From Escherichia phage vB_EcoM_ESCO49, in sequence record OM386663.1: a DNA stretch of 64,000 bases. One strand, 5' to 3'. The notes beneath the pieces were generated by a model. The model ran no database searches. It was not told the origin of the DNA and was given only the letters and a program-made list of their open reading frames with translations. Positions 16,852-29,778 of this stretch are shown here, piece by piece (the first letter of the stretch is position 1; each line of letters opens with the position of its first letter). Position numbers and translations under genes: made by a program.

Positions 16852-16882
16852 AAGAGCCTCCTTAATTGGGGGCTTTTTATTG
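16852..16882 (+). terminator. putative rho-independent terminator ending the plus-strand block
   Basis: GC-rich hairpin GAGCCTCC...GGGGGCT followed by TTTTTATT. Confidence 0.45.
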
Positions 16883-16889
16883 AGTGAAA

Positions 16890-18480
16890 ATTACGAAATT
16901 TATAATTTTTATAAAATTTTATCGGTTGTCCCAACCTCTGGGTCACCATCATACGTGAATAAAATATCTATCCTTCTTAACAACCTTCTTAATCTTACTC
17001 TCTATATAGTTATATAGTACTATATAGTATCTTAGTAACTATCTAGTGGTCTTAATAGCCTCTCTGTATAACCCTTCTAACAAGCCTTCTAACAAGCCCT
17101 CTAAACACTCTTCTAACAAGCCTTCTTAATAACCTATACAATCACCTTAACCATCCCTCTATACCCTCTTAGAAGCTCCTATACACCTCTTAATCTCTAT
17201 GTTACCTATGATACCCTCTATAGGTGTTCACTAGGCACTACTAAGCCTCTATATAGACTGTTTTAACAAACTTAACAGGAATATCTTTACAGACCTTATC
17301 TCACAAGGCCTAACACGGTACTAACAAGGTATCTTATAAACCTGTTTATGCCTGTATTTTAGAAAGACTGTATAGGTAATTATTCAGAATTTTAATTTTT
17401 TTTATAAAATAGGACTGTCAAGTCATTTTTTAGGGTCTTTGAAGGAACTCAAAAATATCTGTCTAGGATGTATATCTGCTTGGTAGCCCTTAACAGCCCT
17501 GTAACATCCCCTTTGCAAAATTTTAAAATATCATTAACAAACTCTTAACAACTCTCTCAAGCTCTTAACATCTCTCCAAAGGTCTTAACAAATTCTTAAT
17601 AGTTTTAACAAGAGGGTAACAAATTTCTAACAAGTGCTGAAAAGGCTTTACAGAATCTTAACAGATGATTAACAAGAGCTAACAAGTTAATTTTTAAGGG
17701 TTATTTTGTTAAGATAATTAACAAGTTCCTAACAAGTATTTAACCTTTTTAACAAGCTATTAACATGGTCACTACTCTTTTCTTATCGTTCCCTTTCTCT
17801 CTTAGTGATTCTCTAAACATACCTTTTAAAAGCTCTCTATAGCTCCTTGTAAGCTCTTTTAAGCCTCTTCCTAGTAATTACACCCCAACTATACAGACAC
17901 CTCTTTATAGAGCTTTACAGGAGCTTTTAAGGCTATGTCAAAGACTCTTACAAGGCTTTTACATGGTATTAACAGAGATTTAACAAGGGGCTAACAAGTT
18001 GCTAACAAGCATAACTATGTAGGGATTGTTAAGAATTTGTTAAAAAGATGTTAAAGGGGCTAGCATTTACGTAACTTTTACGTAACTTTTGAGTAACTTT
18101 ATAGCCCCTATAACATACTTTTAAGACACTATCAAGCCCTTTTTAGTAGTTCACGAGATACTAGTCAGCCTATAAGCTTATACCCTTATAAGGTTCTTTT
18201 AAGCCTCTAGAAAGCTTTATAAAGGGCTTTTAAGGGTGAGGTAATGCAATCCCTTAAGTTATATTGATAAGGCTGTTATAGGGCTTTATAGGGCGTTTTA
18301 GGGGTTGCCCTTCCCTTTCGGGTTATGGGCTTGTATTTAAGGGAAAGATTAGTTGATTTGATAAAAGGCTATAGAATAAGCTATAGAGTTATTGCTTTTT
18401 AAGGTATGGGATAGAGTCTATCGAACCAGTGGGGAGATTCTGGAAAGGTGAGGGAAAGGGTTGTATAAGGATTCGATAGA
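16890..18480. repeat. ORF-free region dense in short direct repeats (TAACAAG/TAACAG family and a triplicated ACGTAACTTTT)
   Basis: About 1.6 kb with no ORF over 60 aa on either strand; more than 25 copies of (C/T)TAACA(A/G)G, mostly in one orientation (for example CTAACAAGCC three times within 17060-17110, clustered copies 17540-17790 and 17960-18010); TACGTAACTTTT repeated around 18070-18105. Confidence 0.6.
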
Positions 18481-18482
18481 CG

Positions 18483-18540
18483 TAAAAAAGCCCCATTTAA
18501 GGGGCTGTATAAAGGTATCTGGGGCTATTTAGCCCCGCTG
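18483..18540 (-). terminator. tandem hairpin terminators ending the small-gene array
   Basis: Hairpins AGCCCC-ATTTA-AGGGGCT and GGGGCT-ATTT-AGCCCC; the first is followed on the minus strand by a U-run (plus AAAAAA 18483-18488). Confidence 0.45.
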
Positions 18541-18546
18541 CGTCGA

Positions 18547-18795
18547 TTAGTTGTAACCTTGTTTGCTGTAGTACAGAGAGATAATCAAGTCACCCCAATA
18601 ATGATAGTGATGCTCATCGTTTAGTGCCTCTTTTACGGCATCTTTCCAAAAGTCATCAGTTGGGTTATAGTCTGGGATAACTTGCTTGATAACTGTCTTC
18701 ACTAAGGAAAAGCATTCATCAGTTCCACCGATATCAAATTTAACATCCAGAGTATAACAGCCATAAGCGTTTACAGTTGCGCGGATAGTTGCCAT
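18547..18795 (-). CDS. small hypothetical protein (array gene 1)
   Basis: Track ORF 18547..18912 trimmed to the ATG at 18795, which follows the conserved leader CCTAAACTGGAGAaTCtAAAA; the track's N-terminal extension translates the conserved hairpin. Confidence 0.5.
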   Translation of the reverse strand: MATIRATVNAYGCYTLDVKFDIGGTDECFSLVKTVIKQVIPDYNPTDDFWKDAVKEALNDEHHYHYWGDLIISLYYSKQGYN

Positions 18796-18912
18796 TTTTA
18801 GATTCTCCAGTTTAGGAAGTAGTTTAAGGACTTTATTTAGTGGGGAGGTCATACCCTCCCCGTTGATTGACAATTTACAGATTTTTGATTGTATCGTCAA
18901 TGTCTTTTTCAA
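18796..18912 (-). promoter_or_regulatory. type A cassette: sigma70-like promoter, 5'UTR hairpin and RBS
   Basis: Minus-strand sense: TTGACG, 17 nt, TAAATT, then hairpin GGGGAGG-GTATGA-CCTCCCC, then CCTAAACTGGAGA RBS and ATG. Confidence 0.5.
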
Positions 18913-19405
18913 TATCTTTTAAAGTTTTTTCTAAGTTCTTGATATTGAAAGATAAGCCCTCTCCCAATGTCTTAGAGTAAACATCAGGGCGCAAGTCATG
19001 CAGTTCGATTTCTTCCACTTCAAAGAGACTAACCAGTTCACCGCTTACATTGTAAGCCATTGAAACAGTATTTACAGGGGCTTTGTAAAACTTGTTCAAC
19101 GACTTGATAGACCGTTCATAAGCCATTTTATAACCGTTTAAAAGGTTTTTAACGTGATTGCGAACGTTTTTACACTCATCTAAGTAAATCCCTAAGAATA
19201 ACGGCAATAACTCCGCTATAGCTTGCATAAAGTGAGAGACCACAACGGTTGCAACATTACGACGATGAACGTAATAAGCCCCTTTTCCTGATTTAGTGAT
19301 AGTTGCAAAGTGTACACCATTGCAGCGAAATTCGTAGGTATCTTTAACAGGTTTAGACATTACAGCATTTGAACGAATGAAGTTGATAGCTTTGAACTTG
19401 TTCAT
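18875..19405 (-). CDS. hypothetical protein (array gene 2)
   Basis: Track ORF 18875..19447 trimmed to the ATG at 19405 that follows the conserved leader GGAGATTCAAAATG. Confidence 0.5.
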   Translation of the reverse strand: MNKFKAINFIRSNAVMSKPVKDTYEFRCNGVHFATITKSGKGAYYVHRRNVATVVVSHFMQAIAELLPLFLGIYLDECKNVRNHVKNLLNGYKMAYERSIKSLNKFYKAPVNTVSMAYNVSGELVSLFEVEEIELHDLRPDVYSKTLGEGLSFNIKNLEKTLKDIEKDIDDTIKNL

Positions 19406-19470
19406 TTTGAATCTCCAGTTTAGGACTTTATTTAGCGGGGAGGTCATCCCTCCCGTTGATTAGTACTTTA
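19406..19470 (-). promoter_or_regulatory. type A cassette (5'UTR hairpin plus RBS)
   Basis: Conserved TTTGAATCTCCAGTTTAGG...GGGGAGGTCATCCCTCCC on the plus strand. Confidence 0.45.
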
Positions 19471-19621
19471 CTTGTTTTGATAGCTGATTGCAAGCAATTT
19501 TTTAAGTTTATCTATAAAGAGTCTTTTAAGTGAATCCCTTTTAGATAAACCCCCTCGAACAAATCTACCAATGTCAAGGGGTGTTGTCAATACTTTTTGA
19601 AAGTTTTTTGTAAGTTATTGA

Positions 19622-19963
19622 TTAACTGATAAATATTTTTTCAGGCTTTACATAGCTGATACGTTGGATTTTTAGTAGGTCATTCCAGATTAATGCGGCA
19701 ATATGAGAATAGCCGGATTCACGTAGAAGCTTCATTGTTTTACTTCTTGTTTCAAATCGGTTTACGTAGTACTCACTATTTAAAACCGTTTTATTGCCTT
19801 CATTGTCCACATGGATAATCTGCATTACTTGAAAGGGGCTTACATCCTCGCCTTTATTCCATTGTTCAAAGTATTTTAGGCACTGCATAGGTGACATCTT
19901 ATCACTAACCTGCGTTGACCAAGATGCGCCAGCTTTATCAGCAATTACGGTTACATAAGCCAT
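19622..19963 (-). CDS. hypothetical protein (array gene 3)
   Basis: 113-aa ORF starting exactly at the conserved leader. Confidence 0.5.
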   Translation of the reverse strand: MAYVTVIADKAGASWSTQVSDKMSPMQCLKYFEQWNKGEDVSPFQVMQIIHVDNEGNKTVLNSEYYVNRFETRSKTMKLLRESGYSHIAALIWNDLLKIQRISYVKPEKIFIS

Positions 19964-20045
19964 TTTTGAATCTCCAGTTTAGGGTTTTATTTAGTGGGGA
20001 GGTCATACCCTCCCCGTTGATTGACAATTTACAGATTTTTATCCG
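19964..20045 (-). promoter_or_regulatory. type A cassette
   Basis: Plus strand TTTTGAATCTCCAGTTTAGGGTTTTATTTAGTGGGGAGGTCATACCCTCCCCGTTGATTGACAATTTACAGATTTTTAT, near-identical to the copy at 18796-18912. Confidence 0.5.
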
Positions 20046-20051
20046 GCTTGT

Positions 20052-20285
20052 CTAGTCTTTTTCAATGATAATTTCATCTTGGCCGTCAACACTGTCAAAA
20101 TAGATTCCGTCGTCATCTTCTGTCTTAAAGTAGCATTTTATATCATCACTTGCGGGATAGTCTTGTCTTGCTATCTGGCAAACTTGAATAGCATTTTCTT
20201 TACTTCCTGAAAACTCCTCAAGCCCTTTAAAGTCGCATGAATACCCATTACAGGTGGAAAGGATGAGATAAACGGTTATAAGCAT
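20052..20285 (-). CDS. small Cys-rich protein with signal-peptide-like N-terminus (array gene 4)
   Basis: 77 aa; MLITVYLILSTCNG hydrophobic N-terminus, acidic C-terminal half. Confidence 0.4.
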   Translation of the reverse strand: MLITVYLILSTCNGYSCDFKGLEEFSGSKENAIQVCQIARQDYPASDDIKCYFKTEDDDGIYFDSVDGQDEIIIEKD

Positions 20286-20348
20286 GATTTAAGCCCCCTA
20301 AATGGCCCTGTACGGGCCTTAAGTTGGAAATTGGTGTCTTTGTATGGT

Positions 20349-20912
20349 TTAGCCTAAAAAGTCGCTCATATTGCGTTCTGTGAGGCTGTTGGTAATTTTG
20401 TCCAGTAGGTCACAATACACAGAGCTATCACCGCTATTCTGTACAATTTTTGCAATACTCAACAAATCATCGTCAATATAGCCCAAATTGCGGTTAGTTG
20501 TATCAGGTACAAAGAAAGGCGCATACATCGCACTAAAATTCGCGGAGTGGATACCAACAATCCAATTTTTATCAAAGTAACCTGTAAAGCTGGCGATGTC
20601 GCTCATATTGTCACAAGAATAATCGTCCTCAAGTTCTTCCTCTGGGATATCCATCTCAATTACAATCACTTCCTGCGTTTCCATTTGGAAAGCTGCCGTA
20701 ATAAGCCCCGACTCTAAAGCATTTTGAATGCAGCGTTCACGGATGTAAGAAGCTTCTTCATCTTCCAGGCATTCCGTTTTGATAATCTTATCCATCGGGT
20801 AAACGTAAAAACAATCATCCATGTAAGAGCAGTTCCAGATACCCTCCGGCTTGTCGCCACCTTTAAGCAGGTTTACAAAGTTTTTCAGAGTAGTGCCGTG
20901 ATAGCATTTCAT
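20349..20912 (-). CDS. hypothetical acidic protein (array gene 5)
   Basis: 187-aa ORF starting at the conserved leader. Confidence 0.5.
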   Translation of the reverse strand: MKCYHGTTLKNFVNLLKGGDKPEGIWNCSYMDDCFYVYPMDKIIKTECLEDEEASYIRERCIQNALESGLITAAFQMETQEVIVIEMDIPEEELEDDYSCDNMSDIASFTGYFDKNWIVGIHSANFSAMYAPFFVPDTTNRNLGYIDDDLLSIAKIVQNSGDSSVYCDLLDKITNSLTERNMSDFLG

Positions 20913-20997
20913 TTTTGAATCTCCAGTTTAGGATTTAGTGGTAAAGCTCTTTATCTGGGGCTTACTATATCGAACTATAAGCCCCTTGTAAAGTACT
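20913..20997 (-). promoter_or_regulatory. type B cassette: promoter embedded in a hairpin, plus RBS
   Basis: Minus-strand sense: TTTACA, 17 nt, TATAGT within hairpin GGGGCTTA-13 nt-TAAGCCCC, then ...ACCACTAAATCCTAAACTGGAGATTCAAAAATG. Confidence 0.5.
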
Positions 20998-21201
20998 TTA
21001 TTTGTTATTTTTTACAACTTTTAAAACTGCAAGATAGCCTAAGCAATAGGAATCACCAAAGAGAGTCCTACCCATGAAAGAATCTTCTTTAATATCCTTT
21101 GCAGTGACAGTTTTTTCTACGCCGTGGGAAAGGACTACATCACCAACTTTAATGTCTTTGATGTGTGTAGTTTCAATGGTTAAACCGTTAATAATAGCCA
21201 T
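20998..21201 (-). CDS. small hypothetical protein (array gene 6)
   Basis: 67-aa ORF starting at the conserved leader. Confidence 0.45.
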   Translation of the reverse strand: MAIINGLTIETTHIKDIKVGDVVLSHGVEKTVTAKDIKEDSFMGRTLFGDSYCLGYLAVLKVVKNNK

Positions 21202-21295
21202 TTTTGAATCTCCAGTTTAGGGTTTTATTTAGTGGGGAGGTCATACCCTCCCCGTTGATGTGTAATTTAATCTATCTAAAAACCAGTGTCAACAA
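21202..21295 (-). promoter_or_regulatory. type A cassette with clear TTGACA-17-TAAATT promoter
   Basis: Minus-strand sense: TTGACACTGGTTTTTAGATAGATTAAATTACACATCAACGGGGAGGGTATGACCTCCCC...GGAGATTCAAAAATG. Confidence 0.55.
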
Positions 21296-21300
21296 AATTT

Positions 21301-21705
21301 TTAGAGTTCTGCATAAATTGCATCACAGACATCACGAAAATCGTGATTTGTCAAATTACGCTGTAACCAAGTGGCGAAAAAATCAGCGATTGCATAATTG
21401 GCATCATACTCGACGGATAGCCATACTTTAACAGCAAATCGAAACATCTTTAAATCAAGCTCTTTATTCATTACCTTTGATTTGCCTAACATGTCGGACA
21501 TTTCATATTGTGCGCCGTCTAGCGTGATACCTGCTGCAACGTCAGCCAATGAACTTTTTACGTTTTTAACGTCTAAAATAACGCTTTGAATCTTTCCGAT
21601 AATGTTGTGCAATGTTTCATCTGGCGCTGCTGATGTCATCACATTAATCCGGTTGACGGTCAAACGTGCTTTTAAGATAGATAATTCACGGTTATTAATA
21701 GCCAT
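21301..21705 (-). CDS. hypothetical protein (array gene 7)
   Basis: 134-aa ORF starting at the conserved leader. Confidence 0.5.
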   Translation of the reverse strand: MAINNRELSILKARLTVNRINVMTSAAPDETLHNIIGKIQSVILDVKNVKSSLADVAAGITLDGAQYEMSDMLGKSKVMNKELDLKMFRFAVKVWLSVEYDANYAIADFFATWLQRNLTNHDFRDVCDAIYAEL

Positions 21706-21790
21706 TTTTGAATCTCCAATTTAGGATTTAGTGGTAAAGCTCTTTATCTGGGGCTTACTATATCGAACTATAAGCCCCTTGTAAAGTACT
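21706..21790 (-). promoter_or_regulatory. type B cassette
   Basis: Near-identical to 20913-20997. Confidence 0.5.
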
Positions 21791-22063
21791 TTAAACTAAA
21801 TGCAGCTTTTTGCCTTTTACCATGATGTAACTTGATGCGCTATTGCTACAAACATCCTGATAAATTCTGCGCAAACGCCCTTTATAGTGTACTTTCCAGC
21901 TGGTTGGAATCTTTTTACCGTATCCCGTAGCAGTTTTTTGGAATCCTGCAAGTTGCCAATTCAAAATATGCTGTTCAGCTTGTAAATCCTCAAAGTGCAT
22001 TATGCCGTTCACATAGTGGCGTAGGGTTACGTTTAAGGTGCGACCGTTGTTAGTAGTATACAT
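21791..22063 (-). CDS. hypothetical protein (array gene 8)
   Basis: Track ORF 21791..22126 trimmed to the ATG at 22063 after the leader GGAGATTCAAAAATG. Confidence 0.5.
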   Translation of the reverse strand: MYTTNNGRTLNVTLRHYVNGIMHFEDLQAEQHILNWQLAGFQKTATGYGKKIPTSWKVHYKGRLRRIYQDVCSNSASSYIMVKGKKLHLV

Positions 22064-22145
22064 TTTTGAATCTCCTAGTTTAAGGGTTTTATTTAGTGGG
22101 GGGTTATCGCCCCCGTTGATGTGCAATTTAATCTATCTAAAAACC
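22064..22145 (-). promoter_or_regulatory. type A cassette (variant hairpin GGGGGGTTATCGCCCCC)
   Basis: Same architecture as 21202-21295, with TTGACACTGGTTTTTAGATAGATTAAATTGCACATCAACGGGGGC. Confidence 0.5.
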
Positions 22146-22149
22146 AGTG

Positions 22150-22482
22150 TCAAGCATTTTGTTTTCGTTTGCTCATTTCTTGAGCAATTACAGCGTAGTA
22201 GTCTTTTAAGTCACTGGTATTTAAAGCATTTATCAGGGAATTATAATCATCAACTAACTGAAAATCATCTTTGAAGATGTCACTAATCTGGTATGTTCTC
22301 GCTTTAAATCTGAAGCTCATCTCTAGCCGCTTTATTTGCTCATCACTTAAACGCTCCAGGAAGCTCATTACAAGGCTATTATTAACCTGTTGTGTGATAG
22401 CCTTATCTGCTAAATTATAGGCTTTATATGCCTTATACAGCGCGAAAATGGCTATAATGGCGGTGACGCCGGTCATTAACAT
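22150..22482 (-). CDS. small membrane protein (array gene 9)
   Basis: 110 aa; N-terminal transmembrane helix LMTGVTAIIAIFALYKAY; its ATG overlaps the stop of a 26-codon upstream ORF. Confidence 0.5.
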   Translation of the reverse strand: MLMTGVTAIIAIFALYKAYKAYNLADKAITQQVNNSLVMSFLERLSDEQIKRLEMSFRFKARTYQISDIFKDDFQLVDDYNSLINALNTSDLKDYYAVIAQEMSKRKQNA

Positions 22483-22645
22483 GGTGTTTCCTCTTTGAAA
22501 TCAATTTTATTAAGTGACTTGCTTAGATTTTCACGGACCTTATTTGATAATTTCATTTTTTGAATCTCCAGTTTAGGATTTAGTGGTAAAGCTCTTTATC
22601 TGGGGCTATCTTATCAGCTTGATAACCCCGTGTAAAAAGGTCTAT

Positions 22646-23158
22646 TTAGTCCTTAAAGATATTCATCACTGAATCTTTTAATGCTTCCAATTGCTCCAGT
22701 ACTTCAGATTCTGCGCCTGAATTGCTCACTTCCTCTTTTAGTCTATCCTCTAAATCAACGCCGTCACTATAACACCAATCAAAAGCATAACCAAGATAAA
22801 AACTTTCTAAAACCGTTTTGCCGTTTACATCTACAACTTTCGCGGCAAGGATGTATTCTGAAGCCTCTAAATCTCTTTCTAGTTCTTCCTGTAAGCTGAC
22901 ATAAGCCTCTTTTGATGGATTTTCCCGGCCCTGTTTTGCATAGTCACTTGAAAGCTGTTTAAGGCTATAATTTAAAGGGATTGCATATTTAAAGGCATTA
23001 TGACGATAGTTGGGGTTTTTAATAGTCACGCCGCCTTGATGGTCGTCTGTAAACTCCCAATCAGCAAGATTATGGCTTGACTCGTAGCAGTTTACCGCTT
23101 CATAGATGATTGAAAATTTTTCTTTTACAACTTCAAAAGTAGCGTCTACAGTTTTCAT
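22646..23158 (-). CDS. hypothetical protein (array gene 10)
   Basis: 170-aa ORF starting at the conserved leader. Confidence 0.5.
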   Translation of the reverse strand: MKTVDATFEVVKEKFSIIYEAVNCYESSHNLADWEFTDDHQGGVTIKNPNYRHNAFKYAIPLNYSLKQLSSDYAKQGRENPSKEAYVSLQEELERDLEASEYILAAKVVDVNGKTVLESFYLGYAFDWCYSDGVDLEDRLKEEVSNSGAESEVLEQLEALKDSVMNIFKD

Positions 23159-23244
23159 TTTAGAATCTCCAGTTTAGGGGTTTAGTGATAAAGCTCTTTA
23201 TCTGGGGCTTACTATATCGAACTATAAGCCCCTTGTAAAGTACT
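23159..23244 (-). promoter_or_regulatory. type B cassette
   Basis: Near-identical to 20913-20997. Confidence 0.5.
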
Positions 23245-23628
23245 TTATTTGTTAATTTTGAAAATTGTCACATAGCCATCGCTCCCGATAATTTGAGATA
23301 CTCCAGCTTTTTCTACTGAATAGCCCATATTCTCAAGATGATAAACAGCATCATCATAACCATATGCGCCGCCCTGATAACGTCTCTTATCACATCTTAT
23401 CAGGTTTTTACCACGTCCTGCAAGTGCATTTAGTACGGCTTTTTCACTTGAAAGCGTACCATCTAACATTGTTGCCGTGTAGTGGTTGATTCTGTTCCCG
23501 TTAATATCATACTTAAAATTGAACGAGTGAACAACAACTATTTTATCGTTAAATTTTTCATCAAGCGCCTTCTCTAATACATTACGGAAATTTTCTTTAT
23601 TGATGAATTTAGGTGCACGATATGCCAT
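23245..23628 (-). CDS. hypothetical protein (array gene 11)
   Basis: 127-aa ORF starting at the conserved leader. Confidence 0.5.
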   Translation of the reverse strand: MAYRAPKFINKENFRNVLEKALDEKFNDKIVVVHSFNFKYDINGNRINHYTATMLDGTLSSEKAVLNALAGRGKNLIRCDKRRYQGGAYGYDDAVYHLENMGYSVEKAGVSQIIGSDGYVTIFKINK

Positions 23629-23716
23629 TTTTGAATCTCCTAGTTTAAGGTTGTTGATAAAGCTCTTTATCTGGGGCTTAAGATATCAACTTTTAAGCCC
23701 CTTGTAAAGTACTTTA
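23629..23716 (-). promoter_or_regulatory. type B cassette (variant)
   Basis: Hairpin GGGGCTTAAGATATCAACTTTTAAGCCCC within the same architecture. Confidence 0.45.
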
Positions 23717-23923
23717 TTAGATATCGTAGTAATAAACTGCTGTCTGTCTTATGTGCTTTCTTGTGTTTCTTGTAAGGTAGCAATTAGAGTTTATAGCCGT
23801 TTCTACATAATTGCAATAGTCAGACTCTGAAATTCTGGACCATGCGCCGCAAATTTGCATGTAAAAACGTTTTACATTTGTGTTAACGTTAGTTGTGACC
23901 ATCAATTCACGACCGTATAGCAT
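23717..23923 (-). CDS. small hypothetical protein (array gene 12)
   Basis: 68-aa ORF starting at the conserved leader. Confidence 0.45.
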   Translation of the reverse strand: MLYGRELMVTTNVNTNVKRFYMQICGAWSRISESDYCNYVETAINSNCYLTRNTRKHIRQTAVYYYDI

Positions 23924-24159
23924 TTTTAGATTCTCCTAGTTTAAGGCTATCGGGCTTATCGCCCTGTCTGATGCAAATACTAGATAACCCCGTTCAAATA
24001 GTCAATAAAATTTTTAAAAATATTTTTGGCAAAAATGTAATGAAACGGGTGCGCGCGAATACCACAAAACAGAACACAAATCAAGAATTATTTTTCAATC
24101 CGCTACAAATTTTTCTGTTGACTTTTCTTTTCGGATGTGGTAGCCTTGTGAGAAATGGC

Positions 24160-24370
24160 GACATCCCCACCTACACCCACCTACCTGCACAATTCTAAAA
24201 TGATTTTTCTTGCCCGACCTGATTTTTCTCTGCACGTTTTGAAAATGAAAAAGCTCTTTGGAGATTACCTGCACAGTTTGAAAATGAATTTTCTCTTTGG
24301 AGTTCAAGATTTTCTCTACAGATTTCTCTATAGAAATATACCTGCACAATTCTGAAATGAAAAAGCCCTC
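24160..24370. repeat. three direct repeats of about 22 bp, ACCTGCACA(A/G)TT(C/T)(T/G)AAAATGA
   Basis: Copies at about 24184-24205, 24271-24292 and 24342-24363 in an intergenic region; track ORFs here are repeat artefacts. Confidence 0.5.
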
Positions 24371-24434
24371 CTTACCTGAAAAAATCTACCAGATAAGAAA
24401 GGCTTAGTCTATTGTGAATATTATACAGAGTTTC

Positions 24435-25220
24435 TTAGTTCTTTGCGTCTAAGAAGGTTACTTCCGGTGAAGAGAAGACCGTCTCAATATCCTCATCAGT
24501 TCTTGCATAGATGTATGTATCTGCATCACTGCCAAATGTTACAGCTATCCTGTGATTGCTCTTCGACAGGTGGGTAACTAGAGCGTTACTTAGAGACATC
24601 TTTTCAACCGGAGGGTTACTTTGATGTATCTTACCTTTTCTTCGTCTGAAGAGGGTAACTGTATTGTCCGTGAACACAACTACACCTGCAAAGTATTCTG
24701 GTTCACAGTAGTTTTTCCAACCTGAGTGTAACTCGTTGTACATCTCTGTCTCGTAGACATACAGATAAACATCTACGCTCTTCATAACCTGATTGATGAT
24801 AACTGTGACAGCTTGAGGGTCCAGCCCACCGATACCTGCACCAATCATAGGTAGGCCAACCTTCTTCAACTGGTTAACTTCACAGTATCTGTTAAGTTGC
24901 TTCAAAGATGACTCTAAAGCACTGTATCGGGCGTCTTTACCAGTCTTAAGCTGAGTGTAAAGGTTAGCTATACGACCTTGTTTTAAACGTGCTACAGAGA
25001 AGTTACCCAGTAAATTTTCACAGGGTTTGTGGCCTATACCACCTGCATAGATGTAAACTTCTGTATCGGTCTCATATGCTTTTGGGTAAAGTTTAGAAAT
25101 CTTGTCAGCGATACCTGCACCCATTAAATTCATACAGTTGCAACCGTGACCAATGATGTCAAACTTACCTTTATCAAAGGCGTCAAAGATATCACCATTG
25201 ATGATTTTTACAATACCCAT
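24435..25220 (-). CDS. macro-domain protein (TARG1/DarG type, ADP-ribose binding or hydrolysing)
   Basis: 261 aa; N-terminal IINGDIFDAFDKGKFDIIGHGCNCMNLMGAGIADKISKLYP matches the NC..MGxGIA...YP pattern of TARG1/DarG-type macro domains (pattern recall, no alignment run). Confidence 0.5.
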   Translation of the reverse strand: MGIVKIINGDIFDAFDKGKFDIIGHGCNCMNLMGAGIADKISKLYPKAYETDTEVYIYAGGIGHKPCENLLGNFSVARLKQGRIANLYTQLKTGKDARYSALESSLKQLNRYCEVNQLKKVGLPMIGAGIGGLDPQAVTVIINQVMKSVDVYLYVYETEMYNELHSGWKNYCEPEYFAGVVVFTDNTVTLFRRRKGKIHQSNPPVEKMSLSNALVTHLSKSNHRIAVTFGSDADTYIYARTDEDIETVFSSPEVTFLDAKN

Positions 25221-27267: not shown

Positions 27268-27963
27268 TCAATGTTTAACTAACATGGTTTTAATGTGTGG
27301 AAGGATTCTGTTTACCTTCTGCACATTCTTCTCTGTATCTTCTATAAAACATACTATATTAAAGTAAGGCAGAATGCAAGACTGAATCATCCTCACTTTC
27401 AAACTTTCTGCACTTATAGAGTTAGCCCCAAAACCACGCATAAAAAGCATGTAGTCATGCTCTATGTAATGCCTTAAAAACATCTCAGTAGGTATTCTCT
27501 GAGATTCACCCCTCGCTGTCAAGAGTCCAATGGCAGCATGGTTGGCAATTGCATCAATAATATTGAAAACATACGTTGGTTTTGCACTTACAGAGTCAAG
27601 CAAATTAGTGTACTGTGAAAATGAACCATCAATCAGTTCCGTTGAGCAATCTTCGTGATTAAAATTTGTAAGGACACCATCAATATCTGCTAAGATGAGG
27701 TTACCTTTTTCTACAAGGTCTTTATTGACTATGACTAAACTGTCACGTCTTACACCTATAGATTGCCCCGTCTCTTTATCCACAACGTTCACAATCGGTT
27801 CTGAAGTGTGGAACTCTTCAAGTGAACATACAACTTCTCTTGCAGTGTCTTCAAAATCCCTACACTGTTCTGGAGTCCATACACCGGAATCAAGACCTAA
27901 CTCATGAGGGTGTAAGTCATAAGCATGACACAGTACTTCATCAGACTTTCTTAATTTTTTCAT
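27268..27963 (-). CDS. HAD-superfamily phosphatase (possible 5'-deoxynucleotidase)
   Basis: 231 aa; HAD motif I ILADIDGVLTNF (DxDG). Confidence 0.5.
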   Translation of the reverse strand: MKKLRKSDEVLCHAYDLHPHELGLDSGVWTPEQCRDFEDTAREVVCSLEEFHTSEPIVNVVDKETGQSIGVRRDSLVIVNKDLVEKGNLILADIDGVLTNFNHEDCSTELIDGSFSQYTNLLDSVSAKPTYVFNIIDAIANHAAIGLLTARGESQRIPTEMFLRHYIEHDYMLFMRGFGANSISAESLKVRMIQSCILPYFNIVCFIEDTEKNVQKVNRILPHIKTMLVKH

Positions 27964-28489
27964 GGTTTACCTTAGAAATGTTTGTTGCAAATTCACATTG
28001 AGCAATAACTTTCATGTTGTTATAGACATCTTGAGAATATTTCTTAGCTTTAGGGATTCTGTACGAATACCCAGCATTATATGATGCTAAAACTTTTTGT
28101 AAAGTCTTCTTTGACTTTGGCTGACCATGCACCTTTGTCCAAAACTCAAGTTCTTTGTGCGTTTCCTTTGCAGCATAGTCAAAATCTTTTAAGAGTTTCT
28201 TTTTAGCCACATTAGGACTAATTTTGTTACGCTTTACAACAGTCTTCAAGTGATTCTGGAAAATACCATAGTCGTGGGTCTTTTTATTCTCTACCTTCAG
28301 ACCTAACTCTGACTCTTGTAAGGCTATAGCTGCTAGAGTAATACCCCAGCCTTTCCCCATATTATTCTCACCATACTGGTAAGCTTTTAACATGTTTACT
28401 TTTTGGCTAATTGATAGCTCTGGGCAGTCAACTGCATAAGATAAGTGTGCTGTAAACATTAAGCACAAACCTAGAATCAATTTCTTCAT
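27941..28489 (-). CDS. secreted lytic transglycosylase-like protein
   Basis: 182 aa; N-terminal signal peptide MKKLILGLCLMFTAHLSYA; ALQESELGL...YGIFQN resembles the SLT catalytic Glu and G(L/I)(M/F)Q motif. Confidence 0.45.
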   Translation of the reverse strand: MKKLILGLCLMFTAHLSYAVDCPELSISQKVNMLKAYQYGENNMGKGWGITLAAIALQESELGLKVENKKTHDYGIFQNHLKTVVKRNKISPNVAKKKLLKDFDYAAKETHKELEFWTKVHGQPKSKKTLQKVLASYNAGYSYRIPKAKKYSQDVYNNMKVIAQCEFATNISKVNHEKIKKV

Positions 28490-29699: not shown

Positions 29700-29778
29700 C
29701 TTATTACTCTCTCTTGTTAGTTAATCAATCAATTTGTGAGGCTATTCTAAGGGGCTTTGAAGCCCCTTGTCAAACACT

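What the first reader, a model, noticed from the sequence alone, without database searches (positions are those of the whole stretch)
18547..23970. Array of about 12 small genes, each behind one of two repeated promoter/leader cassettes
Each small minus-strand gene starts right after a conserved leader (CCTAAACTGGAGATTCAAAA-ATG) and is preceded by one of two 70-90 bp cassettes repeated five or more times each. Type A carries TTGAC(A/G)-17 nt-TAAATT then a perfect hairpin GGGGAGG-GTATGA-CCTCCCC; type B carries TTTACA-17 nt-TATAGT embedded in hairpin GGGGCTTA-13 nt-TAAGCCCC. One gene per promoter with a conserved structured 5'UTR suggests coordinated high-level early expression and possibly post-transcriptional control at the hairpin. 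The products are unassigned and the ORF track over-extends several starts by translating through the hairpin.
Basis: seen in the sequence. Interest (0 to 1): 0.75.

Follow-up and report, generated by a model that had tools for sequence, protein, structure and literature searches.

The report
Promoter–hairpin gene cassettes, Felix-O1-type phage
In this Felix O1-like phage, eleven small genes of unknown function each sit behind one of two repeated cassettes (host-type promoter, GC-clamped hairpin, standard ribosome-binding leader), and related phages have gained, lost or swapped these genes at the cassettes, much as with the 'PeSL' cassettes known from T4-type phages.

Summary
The window comes from a Felix O1-like phage (Felixounavirus). 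On the minus strand, 18.5-24.0 kb holds 13 small ORFs. Eleven are preceded by a 70-100 nt cassette: six type A and five type B. No full copy lies elsewhere in the 64 kb.

Both types carry a sigma-70-like promoter and share a roughly 35-nt leader ending in GGAG-8 nt-ATG. In type A a short G-run/C-run hairpin starts exactly 10 nt after the -10 box. It would therefore sit at the extreme 5' end of the transcript. In type B the promoter lies inside a long imperfect hairpin of about 20 bp, which can form only in read-through RNA. The type B leader is predicted to be unstructured, so "structured 5'UTR" holds for type A only.

Across 14 related phages from four genera, promoter hexamers and type B stem pairing are conserved, with compensatory changes and sense-strand G·U pairs. 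Whole gene modules are present, absent or replaced, with junctions inside the cassettes.

The closest known system is the PeSL of RB49/phi1. The architecture and behaviour match, but I found no sequence homology. The Felix O1 genome paper listed the repeats only as "direct repeats". I rate this a new member of a known kind, of moderate interest. Promoter, hairpin and recombination activities are all inferred, not measured.

The parts
23924..24045 (-). First cassette, a divergent type A, upstream of g3. It has an AT-rich upstream region, TTGACT(24005-24000)-17-TAGTAT(23982-23977), the hairpin GGGC-GATAA-GCCC (23964-23952), and the leader CCTTAAACTAGGAGAATCTAAAA.
   Evidence: (E 1.5e-12)
23717..23923 (-). 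g3, 68 aa, unknown function (phrog_5293)
23629..23716 (-). Type B cassette upstream of g4: TTTACA-17-TATCTT inside GGGGCTTAA..TTAAGCCCC, with an extended lower stem.
   Evidence: dG -24.9, z -4.4
23245..23628 (-). g4, 127 aa, unknown function (phrog_4495)
23159..23244 (-). Type B cassette upstream of g5 (TTTACA-17-TATAGT). Its left part matches the cassette that precedes g16 in phage dune and its right part matches the leader of dune's g5 cassette, so it is a deletion/insertion junction.
22646..23158 (-). g5, 170 aa, unknown function (phrog_4190)
22557..22645 (-). Type B cassette (g6 subtype): TTTACA-17-TAAGAT, with the stem GGGGTTATC/GATAGCCCC containing a U·G pair.
   Evidence: (dG -22, z -3.4)
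22476..22556 (-). g6 remnant, 26 aa. It is an in-frame 72-codon deletion of a 98-aa gene, and its stop overlaps the start of g7.
22150..22482 (-). g7, 110 aa (phrog_4375). No cassette; translationally coupled to g6. Its TGA stop lies inside the -35 hexamer of the next cassette.
22064..22159 (-). Type A cassette upstream of g8: TTGACA(22153)-17-TAAATT, 10 nt, then the hairpin GGGGG-CGATAA-CCCCC.
21791..22063 (-). g8, 90 aa (phrog_3436)
21706..21790 (-). Type B cassette upstream of g9 (TTTACA-17-TATAGT)
21301..21705 (-). g9, 134 aa (phrog_4327)
21202..21300 (-). Type A cassette upstream of g10: TTGACA(21292)-17-TAAATT, 10 nt, then GGGGAGG-GTATGA-CCTCCCC.
20998..21201 (-). g10, 67 aa (phrog_3623)
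20913..20997 (-). Type B cassette upstream of g11 (TTTACA(20992)-17-TATAGT). The long hairpin has dG -25.1 and z -4.85.
20349..20912 (-). g11, 187 aa (phrog_3303). A whole-module allele replacement is seen in GEP101 and radambza (60-62% identity against about 90% for the neighbouring genes). It is the homologue of Bas63 gene 0107.
20052..20285 (-). g12, 77 aa (phrog_4640). No cassette. It has its own ribosome-binding site after the small hairpin GGCCC-GTACA-GGGCC. Its TAG stop lies inside the -35 box (TAGACA) of the next cassette.
19964..20061 (-). Type A cassette upstream of g13: TAGACA(20054)-17-TAAATT, 10 nt, then GGGGAGG-GTATGA-CCTCCCC.
19622..19963 (-). g13, 113 aa (phrog_4318)
19406..19621 (-). 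Long intergenic region of 216 nt. It holds an extra promoter-like site, TTGACA(19590)-17-TAGATT, without a hairpin, and then a type A cassette (about 19406-19502): TTGCAA-17-TAAAGT, 10 nt, then GGGAGG-GATGA-CCTCCC.
18875..19405 (-). g14, 176 aa, no Pfam family
18796..18912 (-). Type A cassette upstream of g15. The -35 box TTGACG (18900) lies inside the 3' end of g14, followed by 17 nt, TAAATT, 10 nt and GGGGAGG-GTATGA-CCTCCCC. The leader has a partial duplication (CCTTAAACTACTTCCTAAACTGGAG).
18547..18795 (-). g15, 82 aa, no Pfam family. Two allele classes exist among related phages (about 70% against 90-94% identity), and the identity drop starts at the cassette/ATG boundary.
18483..18536 (-). 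End of the array. A promoter-less type-B-like hairpin, GGGGCT-AAAT-AGCCCC followed by AGATA (18536-18516), precedes a canonical intrinsic terminator, AGCCCC-TTAAAT-GGGGCT followed by TTTTTT (18506-18483). The terminator corresponds to Felix O1 t23.

Best explanation
The array is a hyperplastic early-gene region built from PeSL-type composite cassettes. Each cassette has three parts: a promoter for the host sigma-70 RNA polymerase, a GC-clamped stem-loop, and a standardised leader of about 35 nt ending in a GGAG Shine-Dalgarno sequence 8 nt before the ATG.

Inferred mechanism:
1. Soon after infection the host polymerase initiates at every cassette, so each ORFan is its own transcription unit. 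Transcription also reads through towards the one canonical terminator at the end of the array.
2. In type A, initiation about 7-8 nt after the -10 box puts the hairpin 3-4 nt from the 5' end. There it most likely protects the mRNA from 5'-end-dependent decay.
3. In type B, the hairpin forms only in read-through RNA, where it buries the -35 box, the -10 box and the start region. It most likely punctuates that RNA by attenuating it, by giving the upstream message a protective 3' hairpin, or by acting as an RNase III-type processing site. RNA started at the type B promoter has an open leader.
4. Because the same cassettes, and especially the shared leader, recur every 0.3-0.6 kb in direct orientation, they serve as portable homology. 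Recombination between them deletes, duplicates, inserts or replaces gene-plus-cassette modules, and any incoming gene arrives already equipped for expression.

Shown here: the anatomy, the conservation pattern, and the break-point association. Inferred: promoter activity, start sites, hairpin function, and the recombination mechanism.
For: Anatomy and non-randomness.

Promoter signal: TTTACA is essentially invariant, and within the variable type B loop only the -12 T, -11 A and -7 T are conserved at a fixed 17-nt spacing, in 42 distinct copies from Felixounavirus, Mooglevirus, Suspvirus and Kolesnikvirus.

Type B helix:
- 97.2% of cells are paired, against 32-60% when the partner is slid.
- There are compensatory GC-to-UA changes at two pairs.
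- One pair splits CG 22 : UG 20.
- The covariation score is 0.105 against 0.066 in shuffles (0 of 500 reach it).
- Non-Watson-Crick pairs are G·U on the sense strand in 66 cells against A·C in 4, so the structure is selected in the sense strand.
- Folding gives dG -22 to -25 kcal/mol and z -3.4 to -4.9.

Type A hairpin: it is always 10 nt after the -10 box. There are 35 stem-loop variants in 72 copies, and all but two keep a complementary GGG…CCC-type stem (for example GGGGAGG/CCTCCCC, GGGAAGG/CCTTCCC, GGGGC/GCCCC, GGGA/TCCC). It forms at nt 4-23 of the predicted transcript.

Not ordinary terminators: no cassette hairpin has a U-tract on the sense strand, whereas the array ends in a canonical terminator. 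TransTerm called terminators only at the flanks in Felix O1.

Plasticity: only 3 of 258 related records cover at least 80% of the array in one piece. The figures are 257 of 263 for the nrd region and 211 of 277 for the adjacent rII region.

Module indels bounded by cassettes of the same type are seen for g16, g5, g4, g21, g17, g18 and g10-12. Junctions lie inside cassettes. Allele replacements of g11 and g15 start at the cassette. Twenty of 57 type A cassettes, and 17-28 of 49 type B cassettes depending on how ties are counted, are closest to a non-orthologous copy.

All products lack Pfam families and fall in PHROGs of unknown function.

RT-PCR in Felix O1 put the homologous ORFs at 5 or 25 min. 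A Bas63 knockout screen describes the region (about 66-80 kb) that holds most of this array as small hypothetical genes of varying essentiality that may function independently.

The analogous RB49 cassettes were shown experimentally to be strong promoters and effective attenuators (PMC2839356).
Against: - No transcript ends have been mapped in any Felix O1-like phage in the searched library. Promoter use, start sites and read-through are therefore predictions.
- Several -10 boxes are weak (TAAAGT and TATCTT match 4 of 6). The generic promoter scan of the region is not enriched overall (27 sites against 20.9 expected).
- The formal covariation test for the type A stem is not significant: score 0.046 against 0.043 in shuffles, and 96.5% pairing when slid by -1. 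G-run/C-run stems pair in several registers.
- Gene order is colinear in all 10 arrays, so indels and replacements are shown but true shuffling of order is not.
- Whole-gene indels must end in intergenic DNA, and here nearly all intergenic DNA is cassette. The break-point association is therefore partly built in. The chimeric junctions are the informative part.
- The right-hand break-point of the g11 replacement lies in the g11/g12 spacer, which is not a cassette.
Confidence: 0.7

Rival explanations
1. Punctuation only. The array is transcribed as one long early RNA from the promoter(s) at its upstream end. The cassettes are processing, attenuation or stabiliser hairpins plus a ribosome-binding leader, and the promoter-like hexamers are incidental.
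For: - The type B hairpin is long and stable and forms only in read-through RNA.
- One GenBank record (KhF3) annotates a type A copy as a terminator.
- Many -10 boxes are weak, and the region is not enriched in promoter-like sites overall.
- The first cassette has the most obvious AT-rich upstream element.
Against: - The only invariant loop positions are exactly the -12 T and -11 A (with the -7 T at 90% or more), at a fixed 17 nt from an invariant TTTACA, while the rest of the loop varies freely. A pure RNA hairpin has no reason to keep these.
- The type A hexamers TTGACA-17-TAAATT and the 10-nt distance to the hairpin are likewise conserved.
- Structurally equivalent RB49 cassettes are proven strong promoters.
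Confidence: 0.1
2. DNA-level operators. The inverted repeats are binding sites for a dimeric phage or host regulator that switches this set of early promoters off (or on) together. The RNA hairpins are a by-product.
For: - The type B palindrome is centred on the promoter and covers the -35 box, the -10 box and +1, which is a classic operator position (I5, 25).
- AGATAAAGAGCTTTA is more conserved than pairing alone requires.
- The Felix O1 paper states that temporal regulation is unexplained.
Against: - Departures from perfect symmetry are strongly strand-biased: 66 G·U against 4 A·C. This fits a sense-strand RNA (or single-strand) fold, not a symmetric duplex site.
- Type A stems vary widely in sequence (35 stem-loop variants) while staying complementary, which is unlike a sequence-specific operator.
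- No candidate regulator was identified in the array.
Confidence: 0.1
3. Selfish or neutral repeat. The cassettes are a short mobile or recombinogenic repeat that has spread through the intergenic regions, with no regulatory role beyond carrying a ribosome-binding site.
For: - Copies exchange between positions and are homogenised within genomes.
- Phage Michonne carries a perfect 430-bp tandem duplication of a module.
- The Felix O1 and wV8 records treat them simply as direct repeats.
Against: - All copies have the same orientation as the genes and end exactly at a start codon.
- There are no terminal inverted repeats, no target-site duplications and no transposase.
- Functional positions (promoter hexamers, stem pairing, GGAG spacing) are conserved across four genera, whereas the leader sequence itself changes in the Erwinia phages.
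Confidence: 0.05

Closest known systems
PeSLs (promoter-early stem-loops) of T4-type phages RB49/phi1, later extended to PST/T4 and nt-1/KVP40 (Arbiol et al. 2010, PMC2839356; Comeau et al. 2014, PMC4122927)
   Same: - The order of elements matches: the stop codon of the upstream gene in an AT-rich stretch, sigma-70 -35/-10 boxes, a stem-loop rich in poly-G…poly-C placed between the boxes, over the -10 box or just after it, then the Shine-Dalgarno sequence and ATG.
- They are concentrated in a hyperplastic region upstream of ORFans.
- They mark indels and replacements between close relatives.
- Even the ribosome-binding end is nearly the same: RB49 has GGAGAATCAAAAATG and this window has GGAGATTCAAAAATG.
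   Different: - The host phage belongs to another lineage (Ounavirinae, not Straboviridae).
- There is no detectable sequence homology. An RB49-PeSL profile gives one hit at E 0.95 in the window, and the window's cassette profiles give only marginal hits in RB49 (E 0.009 or worse).
- There are only two sharply defined, highly homogenised classes, which share a 35-nt leader.
- The type B stem-loop extends to about 20 bp and encloses the whole promoter.
- Promoter, attenuator and mini-circle activities are untested here.
Phage T4 early promoters (many small early genes, each with its own strong sigma-70 promoter and an A-rich upstream region); stated from my own knowledge
   Same: The -35 box resembles (G)TTTAC, the spacer is 17 bp, the upstream sequence is A-rich, and there is one promoter per small non-essential early gene.
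   Different: T4 early promoters are not, as a class, coupled to a conserved hairpin and a common leader.
RNase III processing hairpins between phage T7 early genes (R-sites); stated from my own knowledge
   Same: The type B read-through hairpin is an imperfect helix of about 20 bp with a conserved internal loop (CAN/AGA), sitting between adjacent cistrons. Cleavage on its 3' side would leave a 3' hairpin on the upstream message.
   Different: There is no evidence of cleavage. T7 sites are not promoters. The resemblance is one of size and shape only.
5'-terminal stabiliser stem-loops (E. coli ompA type: a hairpin within a few nucleotides of the 5' end blocks 5'-end-dependent RNase E decay); stated from my own knowledge
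   Same: The type A hairpin is predicted to start 3-4 nt from the 5' end, at a distance from the -10 box that is fixed in essentially all of the 72 copies examined.
   Different: The start site is predicted rather than mapped, and no half-life data exist.
Intrinsic (Rho-independent) terminators
   Same: A GC-rich stem-loop lies directly after the stop codon of the upstream gene.
   Different: No cassette has a U-tract after the stem on the sense strand, while the phage uses a canonical hairpin+TTTTTT where the array ends.

Membership tests
PeSL (promoter-early stem-loop) cassettes | Sigma-70-like -35 and -10 hexamers with 16-18 bp spacing | tested here: met
   TTGACA/TTGACG/TAGACA/TTGCAA-17-TAAATT/TAAAGT in type A, and TTTACA-17-TATAGT/TATCTT/TAAGAT in type B. 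The -35 box and the -12T/-11A/-7T positions are conserved in 42 distinct copies.
PeSL (promoter-early stem-loop) cassettes | [quoted passage not shown] | tested here: met
   For example AAATAAAGTACTTTACA and CTCTAAAAATTTTGTTGACA. Two stop codons lie inside the -35 hexamer itself.
PeSL (promoter-early stem-loop) cassettes | Stable stem-loop, often poly-G…poly-C, placed between the boxes, over the -10 box, or just downstream of it | tested here: met
   In type B the stem-loop spans the spacer and the -10 box. In type A it starts 10 nt after the -10 box. Both begin GGG(G) and end (C)CCC. Formal covariation is significant for type B and not for type A.
PeSL (promoter-early stem-loop) cassettes | Shine-Dalgarno sequence and start codon of the downstream gene at the 3' end | tested here: met
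   GGAG-8 nt-ATG in all 11 copies.
PeSL (promoter-early stem-loop) cassettes | Concentrated in hyperplastic regions, upstream of ORFans | tested here: met
   All 11 full copies lie in 5.5 kb of the 64 kb. No product has a Pfam family and all PHROGs are of unknown function. The array is covered at 80% or more in 3 of 258 relatives, against 257 of 263 and 211 of 277 for the control regions.
PeSL (promoter-early stem-loop) cassettes | Insertions, deletions and replacements between close relatives have their junctions in the cassettes | tested here: met
   At least 8 module indels are bounded by cassettes of the same type. Chimeric junction cassettes are seen. Allele swaps begin at the cassette. 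Caveat: almost all intergenic DNA here is cassette.
PeSL (promoter-early stem-loop) cassettes | Demonstrated promoter activity and terminator/attenuator activity of the stem-loop | not testable with these tools
   This needs reporter fusions or transcript mapping. None was found for Felix O1-like phages in the library.
PeSL (promoter-early stem-loop) cassettes | Formation of encapsidated mini-circles by recombination between neighbouring cassettes | not testable with these tools
   This needs outward-facing PCR or long-read data. The only indirect hint is a 430-bp tandem module duplication in phage Michonne.
PeSL (promoter-early stem-loop) cassettes | Sequence relatedness to the RB49/phi1 cassettes (common descent) | tested here: not met
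   An RB49 PeSL profile against the window gives one hit at E 0.95. The cassette profiles against 22 kb of RB49 give E 0.009 or worse. This is therefore an analogue of the same functional kind, not a homologue.
Intrinsic terminator | GC-rich hairpin followed directly by a U-tract on the transcribed strand | tested here: not met
   The terminator scan flags none of the cassette hairpins on the minus (sense) strand, only the end-of-array terminator at 18506-18489. The sequence after the stems is ACTAAATAAA or AGATAAAGAG.
Any curated RNA family (Rfam 15) | Match to a covariance model | tested here: not met
   Only tRNAs pass at gathering score in the window. There is no match up to E = 1 in 18300-24400.
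RNase III processing site (T7 R-site type) | Imperfect double helix of about 20 bp with an internal loop, cleaved by RNase III | tested here: inconclusive
   The shape is met for type B: 5-6 bp, a 1x1 mismatch, 5 bp, a 3x3 loop, then 8-9 bp. Cleavage cannot be tested here.
5'-terminal stabiliser hairpin | Stem-loop within about 4 nt of the mRNA 5' end | tested here: inconclusive
   The hairpin starts 10 nt after the -10 box in essentially all of the 72 type A copies, which implies 3-4 unpaired nt if initiation is 7-8 nt after the hexamer. The start site has not been mapped.

The most novel reading that the evidence does not exclude
The type B cassette may be a dual-route device. The promoter is encoded inside an RNase III-type hairpin whose 3'-side internal loop (CCCC|AGAUAAAG) coincides with the promoter's own +1. 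Initiation at the cassette and processing of read-through RNA would then yield the same monocistronic mRNA 5' end, and processing would leave a protective 3' hairpin on the upstream message. Together with the type A 5' hairpin, this would make the array an integrase-free, integron-like system. In it, any gene dropped between two cassettes is expressed at a standard level whatever the upstream transcription. The same design would have evolved independently in Ounavirinae and in T4-type phages.
Probability: 0.15. Interest if true: 0.7.

Novelty: new member of a known kind. Interest (0 to 1): 0.5.

Why it matters
If the reading holds, composite promoter/stem-loop cassettes that both express accessory genes and serve as recombination sites for exchanging them are not peculiar to T4-type phages. 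They would be a recurrent design of virulent enterobacterial phages. Here they occur in a lineage (Felix O1, wV8, Bas63 and more than 250 sequenced relatives) that is widely used for typing, biocontrol and therapy.

The reading gives testable answers to two points the Felix O1 genome paper left open: where early transcription starts in this region, and how transcription is organised around hairpins.

It also explains why this 5-6 kb is the most variable part of the genome. It marks the cassettes as natural, pre-equipped insertion sites for engineering. Finally, it singles out about 20 ORFan families as likely host-takeover or anti-defence candidates. One of them, the homologue of g11, already shows host-dependent importance in a Bas63 knockout screen.

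Tried and rejected
1. **RegB-type cleavage of the GGAG leaders.** An Erwinia relative annotates a 'putative RegB'. Its window homologue (27941-28489) shows only a weak similarity to lytic transglycosylase (SLT) domains (E 9e-4) and no RegB Pfam match, so I dropped the idea.

2. **Common descent with RB49 PeSLs.** Not supported.

3. **Rfam.** Nothing at gathering score or up to E = 1.

4. **Function of the products.**
   - No Pfam family; all PHROGs are of unknown function.
   - g11 has no sequence match in the PDB, and its homologues occur only in similar phages.
   - The AlphaFold2 model of g11 is mediocre (pLDDT 71; the other four models score 45-49).
   - The PDB fold search gives nothing (best E 0.65, TM below 0.25). 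The NAD-binding/ADP-ribosyltransferase-like hint from the Bas63 preprint is therefore not confirmed.

5. **Formal covariation for the type A stem.** A covariance-model alignment gave an inconclusive result, because G-run/C-run stems pair in several registers.

6. **Literature.**
   - I found no transcript mapping for Felix O1-like phages and no paper linking PeSLs to them.
   - The wV8 paper does not mention the repeats.
   - The Felix O1 paper lists two of them only as direct repeats.

7. **Integron attC sites or MITE-like elements.** I considered both and rejected them. There is no integrase or transposase, no terminal repeats and no target duplications, and the orientation is strictly that of the genes.

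8. **A mini-hairpin sequestering the Shine-Dalgarno sequence** (CCU-UAAACU-AGG, 3 bp). It is too weak to interpret.

Full report
**Source of the window.** A 6-kb query over the finding matches 258 phage records. Nearly all are Felix O1-like phages of Escherichia, Salmonella, Shigella and Citrobacter, and the best are 87-90% identical. The window also carries the tRNA cluster typical of these phages, with 19 genes at 2.5-6.9 kb. The array corresponds to Felix O1 ORFs 15-23. It lies between the macro-domain gene ORF13 (window 24435-25220; Pfam Macro) and terminator t23.

**Checking the observation.**
- The leader CCTAAACTGGAGATTCAAAA occurs 8 times (up to 3 mismatches), always on the minus strand between 18797 and 23178, against 0.01 expected. 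Three more genes carry the variant CCTTAAACTAGGAGA(T/A)TC.
- Profile HMMs made from the cassettes find six type A and five type B copies (E 1e-12 to 1e-30). There is no other full copy in the 64 kb.
- The array has 13 ORFs. Eleven follow a cassette. g7 is translationally coupled to a 26-aa remnant of g6, which is an in-frame 72-codon deletion. g12 has its own ribosome-binding site.
- The mechanical ORF list does over-extend three starts through the hairpin. The annotated lengths in nine relatives agree with the ATG that follows the leader.
- A combined scan for a promoter-like site plus a GGG…CCC hairpin finds the array copies and four other sites. Shuffled sequence gives about 0.1.

**Anatomy of type A.** The order of elements is: an A-rich stretch, a -35 box (TTGACA, TTGACG, TAGACA or TTGCAA), 17 nt, a -10 box (TAAATT or TAAAGT), 10 nt ending in ATCAAC, a hairpin, and then CCACTAAATAAA(G/A)(T/C)CCTAAACTGGAGATTCAAAA-ATG. 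I examined 72 type A copies from the window and 11 related phages.
- The hairpin begins exactly 10 nt after the -10 box in essentially all of them.
- There are 35 different stem-loops, and all but two keep a complementary stem that starts GGG and ends CCC. Examples are GGGGAGG/CCTCCCC, GGGGAGGG/CCTTCCCC (with a G·U pair), GGGAAGG/CCTTCCC, GGGGGA/TCCCCC, GGGGC/GCCCC, GGGC/GCCC and GGGA/TCCC. Mooglevirus and Suspvirus copies have a GAAA loop.
- With initiation 7-8 nt after the hexamer (established sigma-70 geometry; my inference here), the RNA would begin (C)AAC-GGGG…. The hairpin then folds at nt 4-23 and the rest of the leader is open.
- A formal covariation test on a covariance-model alignment is not significant (score 0.046 against 0.043; 96.5% paired when slid by one), because G-runs and C-runs pair in several registers. 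The case for selection on the type A hairpin therefore rests on its fixed position and on the complementary stem variants, not on statistics.

**Anatomy of type B.** The order of elements is: stop codon, AAAGTAC, TTTACA, 17 nt, TAnnnT, AAGCCCC, AGATAAAGAGCTTTA, then CCACTAAATCCTAAACTGGAGATTCAAAA-ATG.
The RNA folds into a longer imperfect helix: 5-6 bp, a 1x1 mismatch, 5 bp (CUUUA of the -35 box pairing with UAAAG), a 3x3 internal loop, and 8-9 bp. This gives dG -22 to -25 kcal/mol and z -3.4 to -4.9.
- In 42 distinct copies from Felixounavirus, Mooglevirus, Suspvirus and the Erwinia Kolesnikvirus, 97.2% of pair cells are standard pairs, against 32-60% when the partner is slid.
- Two pairs show compensatory GC-to-UA changes, one in the g6 subtype and one in the Erwinia phages (GGTGTTTA…TAAGCACC). 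One pair splits CG 22: UG 20. The covariation score beats all 500 shuffles.
- Non-Watson-Crick pairs are G·U on the gene strand in 66 cells and A·C in 4. The structure is therefore selected in the sense strand. This argues against a symmetric duplex operator.
- Inside the loop the sequence varies freely, except for a T and an A that are invariant and a T that is at least 90% conserved. These are exactly the -12, -11 and -7 positions of a -10 hexamer, 17 nt from the invariant TTTACA. This is the strongest sequence evidence that these are promoters.
- The predicted start lies at the 3' edge of the upper stem (CCCC|AGAUAAAG). RNA made from a type B promoter therefore cannot form the hairpin, and its leader is unstructured (z about 0). 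The hairpin exists only in RNA arriving from upstream.

**Not ordinary terminators.** None of the cassette hairpins is followed by a U-tract on the sense strand, and the terminator scan flags none of them there. The array ends with a promoter-less type-B-like hairpin followed by a canonical hairpin+TTTTTT. In Felix O1, TransTerm called terminators only at the two flanks.

**Distribution.** The type B cassette matches 288 phage records at 1429 places, including 29 Erwinia phages. Type A matches 247 records at 1160 places and is absent from the Erwinia phages. Arrays in ten Felixounavirus genomes carry 7-15 cassettes each.

**The region is hyperplastic.** Equal-length queries give the following results:

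| Region | Records covering at least 80% in one piece |
|---|---|
| Cassette array | 3 of 258 |
| nrd region | 257 of 263 |
| Adjacent rIIA-to-ORF12 region | 211 of 277 |

**Module map of ten arrays.** The map shows conserved gene order but presence or absence of whole modules.
- g16, g5, g4 and g21 are each bounded by two type B cassettes.
- g17 and g18 are each bounded by two type A cassettes.
- g10-g11-g12, bounded by two type A cassettes, are missing from Felix O1.
- g3 is lost in three phages, leaving a type A promoter in front of g4.
- g15 is lost in two phages, leaving a truncated type A cassette.

**Junctions are inside the cassettes.**
- The window's cassette before g5 matches phage dune's cassette before g16 on the left (including its hairpin variant) and dune's g5 leader on the right.
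- radambza joins the g16-type cassette to g6.
- Felix O1 joins the g10-type promoter to g13.

**Whole-module allele replacements.** g11 is 60-62% identical to GEP101 and radambza, while its neighbours are about 90%. g15 is about 70% identical to four phages and 90-94% to three. The identity drop starts at the cassette/ATG boundary.

**Exchange between positions.** Twenty of 57 type A cassettes, and 17-28 of 49 type B cassettes depending on how ties are counted, are most similar to a copy at another position rather than to their positional orthologue. Several hairpin variants are shared only by paralogous copies within one genome. This indicates exchange between positions.

**Caveats on the recombination evidence.**
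- Nearly all intergenic DNA here is cassette, so whole-gene indels would end in cassettes anyway. The chimeric junctions are the informative evidence.
- The right end of the g11 swap lies in a non-cassette spacer.
- Reordering of genes was not seen.

**The products.** None of the 12 tested proteins has a Pfam family, and the ten tested against PHROGs fall in families of unknown function. For g11 I found homologues only in similar phages, no sequence match in the PDB, a mediocre AlphaFold2 model (pLDDT 71) and no fold match.

In Bas63 (JohannRWettstein) the array is genes 0098-0111. A knockout-screen preprint describes the region (about 66-80 kb) that holds most of this array as small hypothetical genes of varying essentiality that may function independently. 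It reports g107, the g11 homologue if the paper's numbering follows the locus tags, as more important on E. coli S17-1.

Felix O1 RT-PCR placed ORFs 16, 20, 21 and 22 at 5 min and ORFs 17, 19 and 23 at 25 min, with none late. There is no relation to cassette type.

**Comparison with what is known.** The closest described system is the PeSL (promoter-early stem-loop) of the T4-type phages RB49 and phi1. It consists of a stop codon in an AT-rich stretch, sigma-70 boxes, a stem-loop rich in poly-G/poly-C at one of five positions relative to the boxes, a Shine-Dalgarno sequence and a start codon. PeSLs are concentrated in hyperplastic regions before ORFans. They were shown to be strong promoters and effective attenuators, and they are implicated in indels and mini-circle formation (PMC2839356; PMC4122927).

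I read RB49's own cassettes, for example TAAAGTTGTTGACAGGGGATCGGTGATCCCCTATAATGCACACATACC…TAGGAGAATCAAAAATG. The architecture is the same, down to an almost identical Shine-Dalgarno-to-ATG segment. Profile searches in both directions are not significant. The Felix-type cassettes are therefore analogues of the same kind, not detectable homologues.

One RB49-style copy, with the hairpin inside the spacer, also sits between rIIA and rIIB in this window.

In the literature available to me:
- The Felix O1 genome paper lists a 57-bp and a 39-bp 'direct repeat' that are these two cassettes, without interpreting them. It states that temporal regulation is unknown.
- GenBank records variously label copies as DR_n (wV8), promoter (AYO145A) or terminator (KhF3).
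- I found no paper connecting them with PeSLs, and none mapping transcripts.

**Verdict.** My best explanation (confidence about 0.7) is a PeSL-type array with four features:
- one host-polymerase promoter per ORFan;
- a 5'-terminal hairpin on type A messages;
- a read-through-only punctuation hairpin around type B promoters;
- cassettes that double as the homology for module gain, loss and replacement.

The roles of the hairpins are the least certain part. Promoter activity, start sites, hairpin function and the recombination mechanism are all inferred.

I rate it a new member of a known kind, of moderate interest (0.5). The most novel reading not excluded is that the type B hairpin is an RNase III-type site whose cleavage point coincides with the promoter's +1 (probability about 0.15).

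Noticed in passing
window 16880-18480: A non-coding gap of about 1.6 kb lies between convergent terminators. It is packed with short repeats: 21 CTTAACAA-like matches in 16976-18044, about 7 times the window density, and 11-bp-periodic runs at 17954-18009. Several related GenBank records begin inside the equivalent gap, so it may hold the genome terminus, an origin or a packaging site.
   Followed up: partly
window 24182-24375: Three direct repeats of about 30 nt (TACCTGCACAATTCTAAAATGA…) lie between the macro-domain gene with its terminator and the first cassette. Their function is unknown (families D10/D11).
   Followed up: no
window 29737-29775 (minus strand, rIIA-rIIB intergenic region): TTGACA-18-TAGAAT with the hairpin GGGGCT-TCAA-AGCCCC inside the spacer. 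This is a single cassette of the RB49 PeSL layout, outside the array.
   Followed up: partly
window 41489 (-), 38032 (-), 14181 (+): Promoter-like hexamers lie 0-4 nt upstream of hairpins that resemble terminators listed for Felix O1 (t116, t124, t29). These may be composite terminator-promoter sites elsewhere in the genome.
   Followed up: no
L010 (Citrobacter phage Michonne) 3732-4602: A perfect 430-bp tandem duplication of a module (type B cassette plus a 258-nt gene). The junction is …GGAGAATCTAAAATG|CTTTACATGGGG…, that is, a cassette's ATG joined directly to the next cassette's -35 box.
   Followed up: partly
window 22476-22556: g6 is reduced to 26 aa by an in-frame deletion of 72 codons relative to the 98-aa gene of relatives. 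It keeps the overlap of its stop with the g7 start.
   Followed up: yes
window 27941-28489 and L012 49-561: The 'putative RegB endoribonuclease' annotated in Erwinia phage Panisse is 45% identical to this window protein. The window protein has only a weak similarity to lytic transglycosylase (SLT) domains and a hydrophobic N-terminus, so the RegB label looks wrong.
   Followed up: partly
window 22150-22153 and 20052-20054: The stop codons of g7 (TGA) and g12 (TAG) lie inside the -35 hexamers (TTGACA, TAGACA) of the following cassettes.
   Followed up: no
window 19562-19590 (minus strand): An extra promoter-like site, TTGACA-17-TAGATT (10 of 12 matches, with a TG before the second hexamer), lies in the 216-nt spacer before g14. 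It has no hairpin and is upstream of the regular type A cassette.
   Followed up: no
window 20349-20912 (g11): This is the homologue of Bas63 gene 0107. A knockout-screen preprint reports that gene as more important on E. coli S17-1 and as faintly resembling an NAD-binding domain. My structure prediction and PDB fold search could not confirm any fold.
   Followed up: partly
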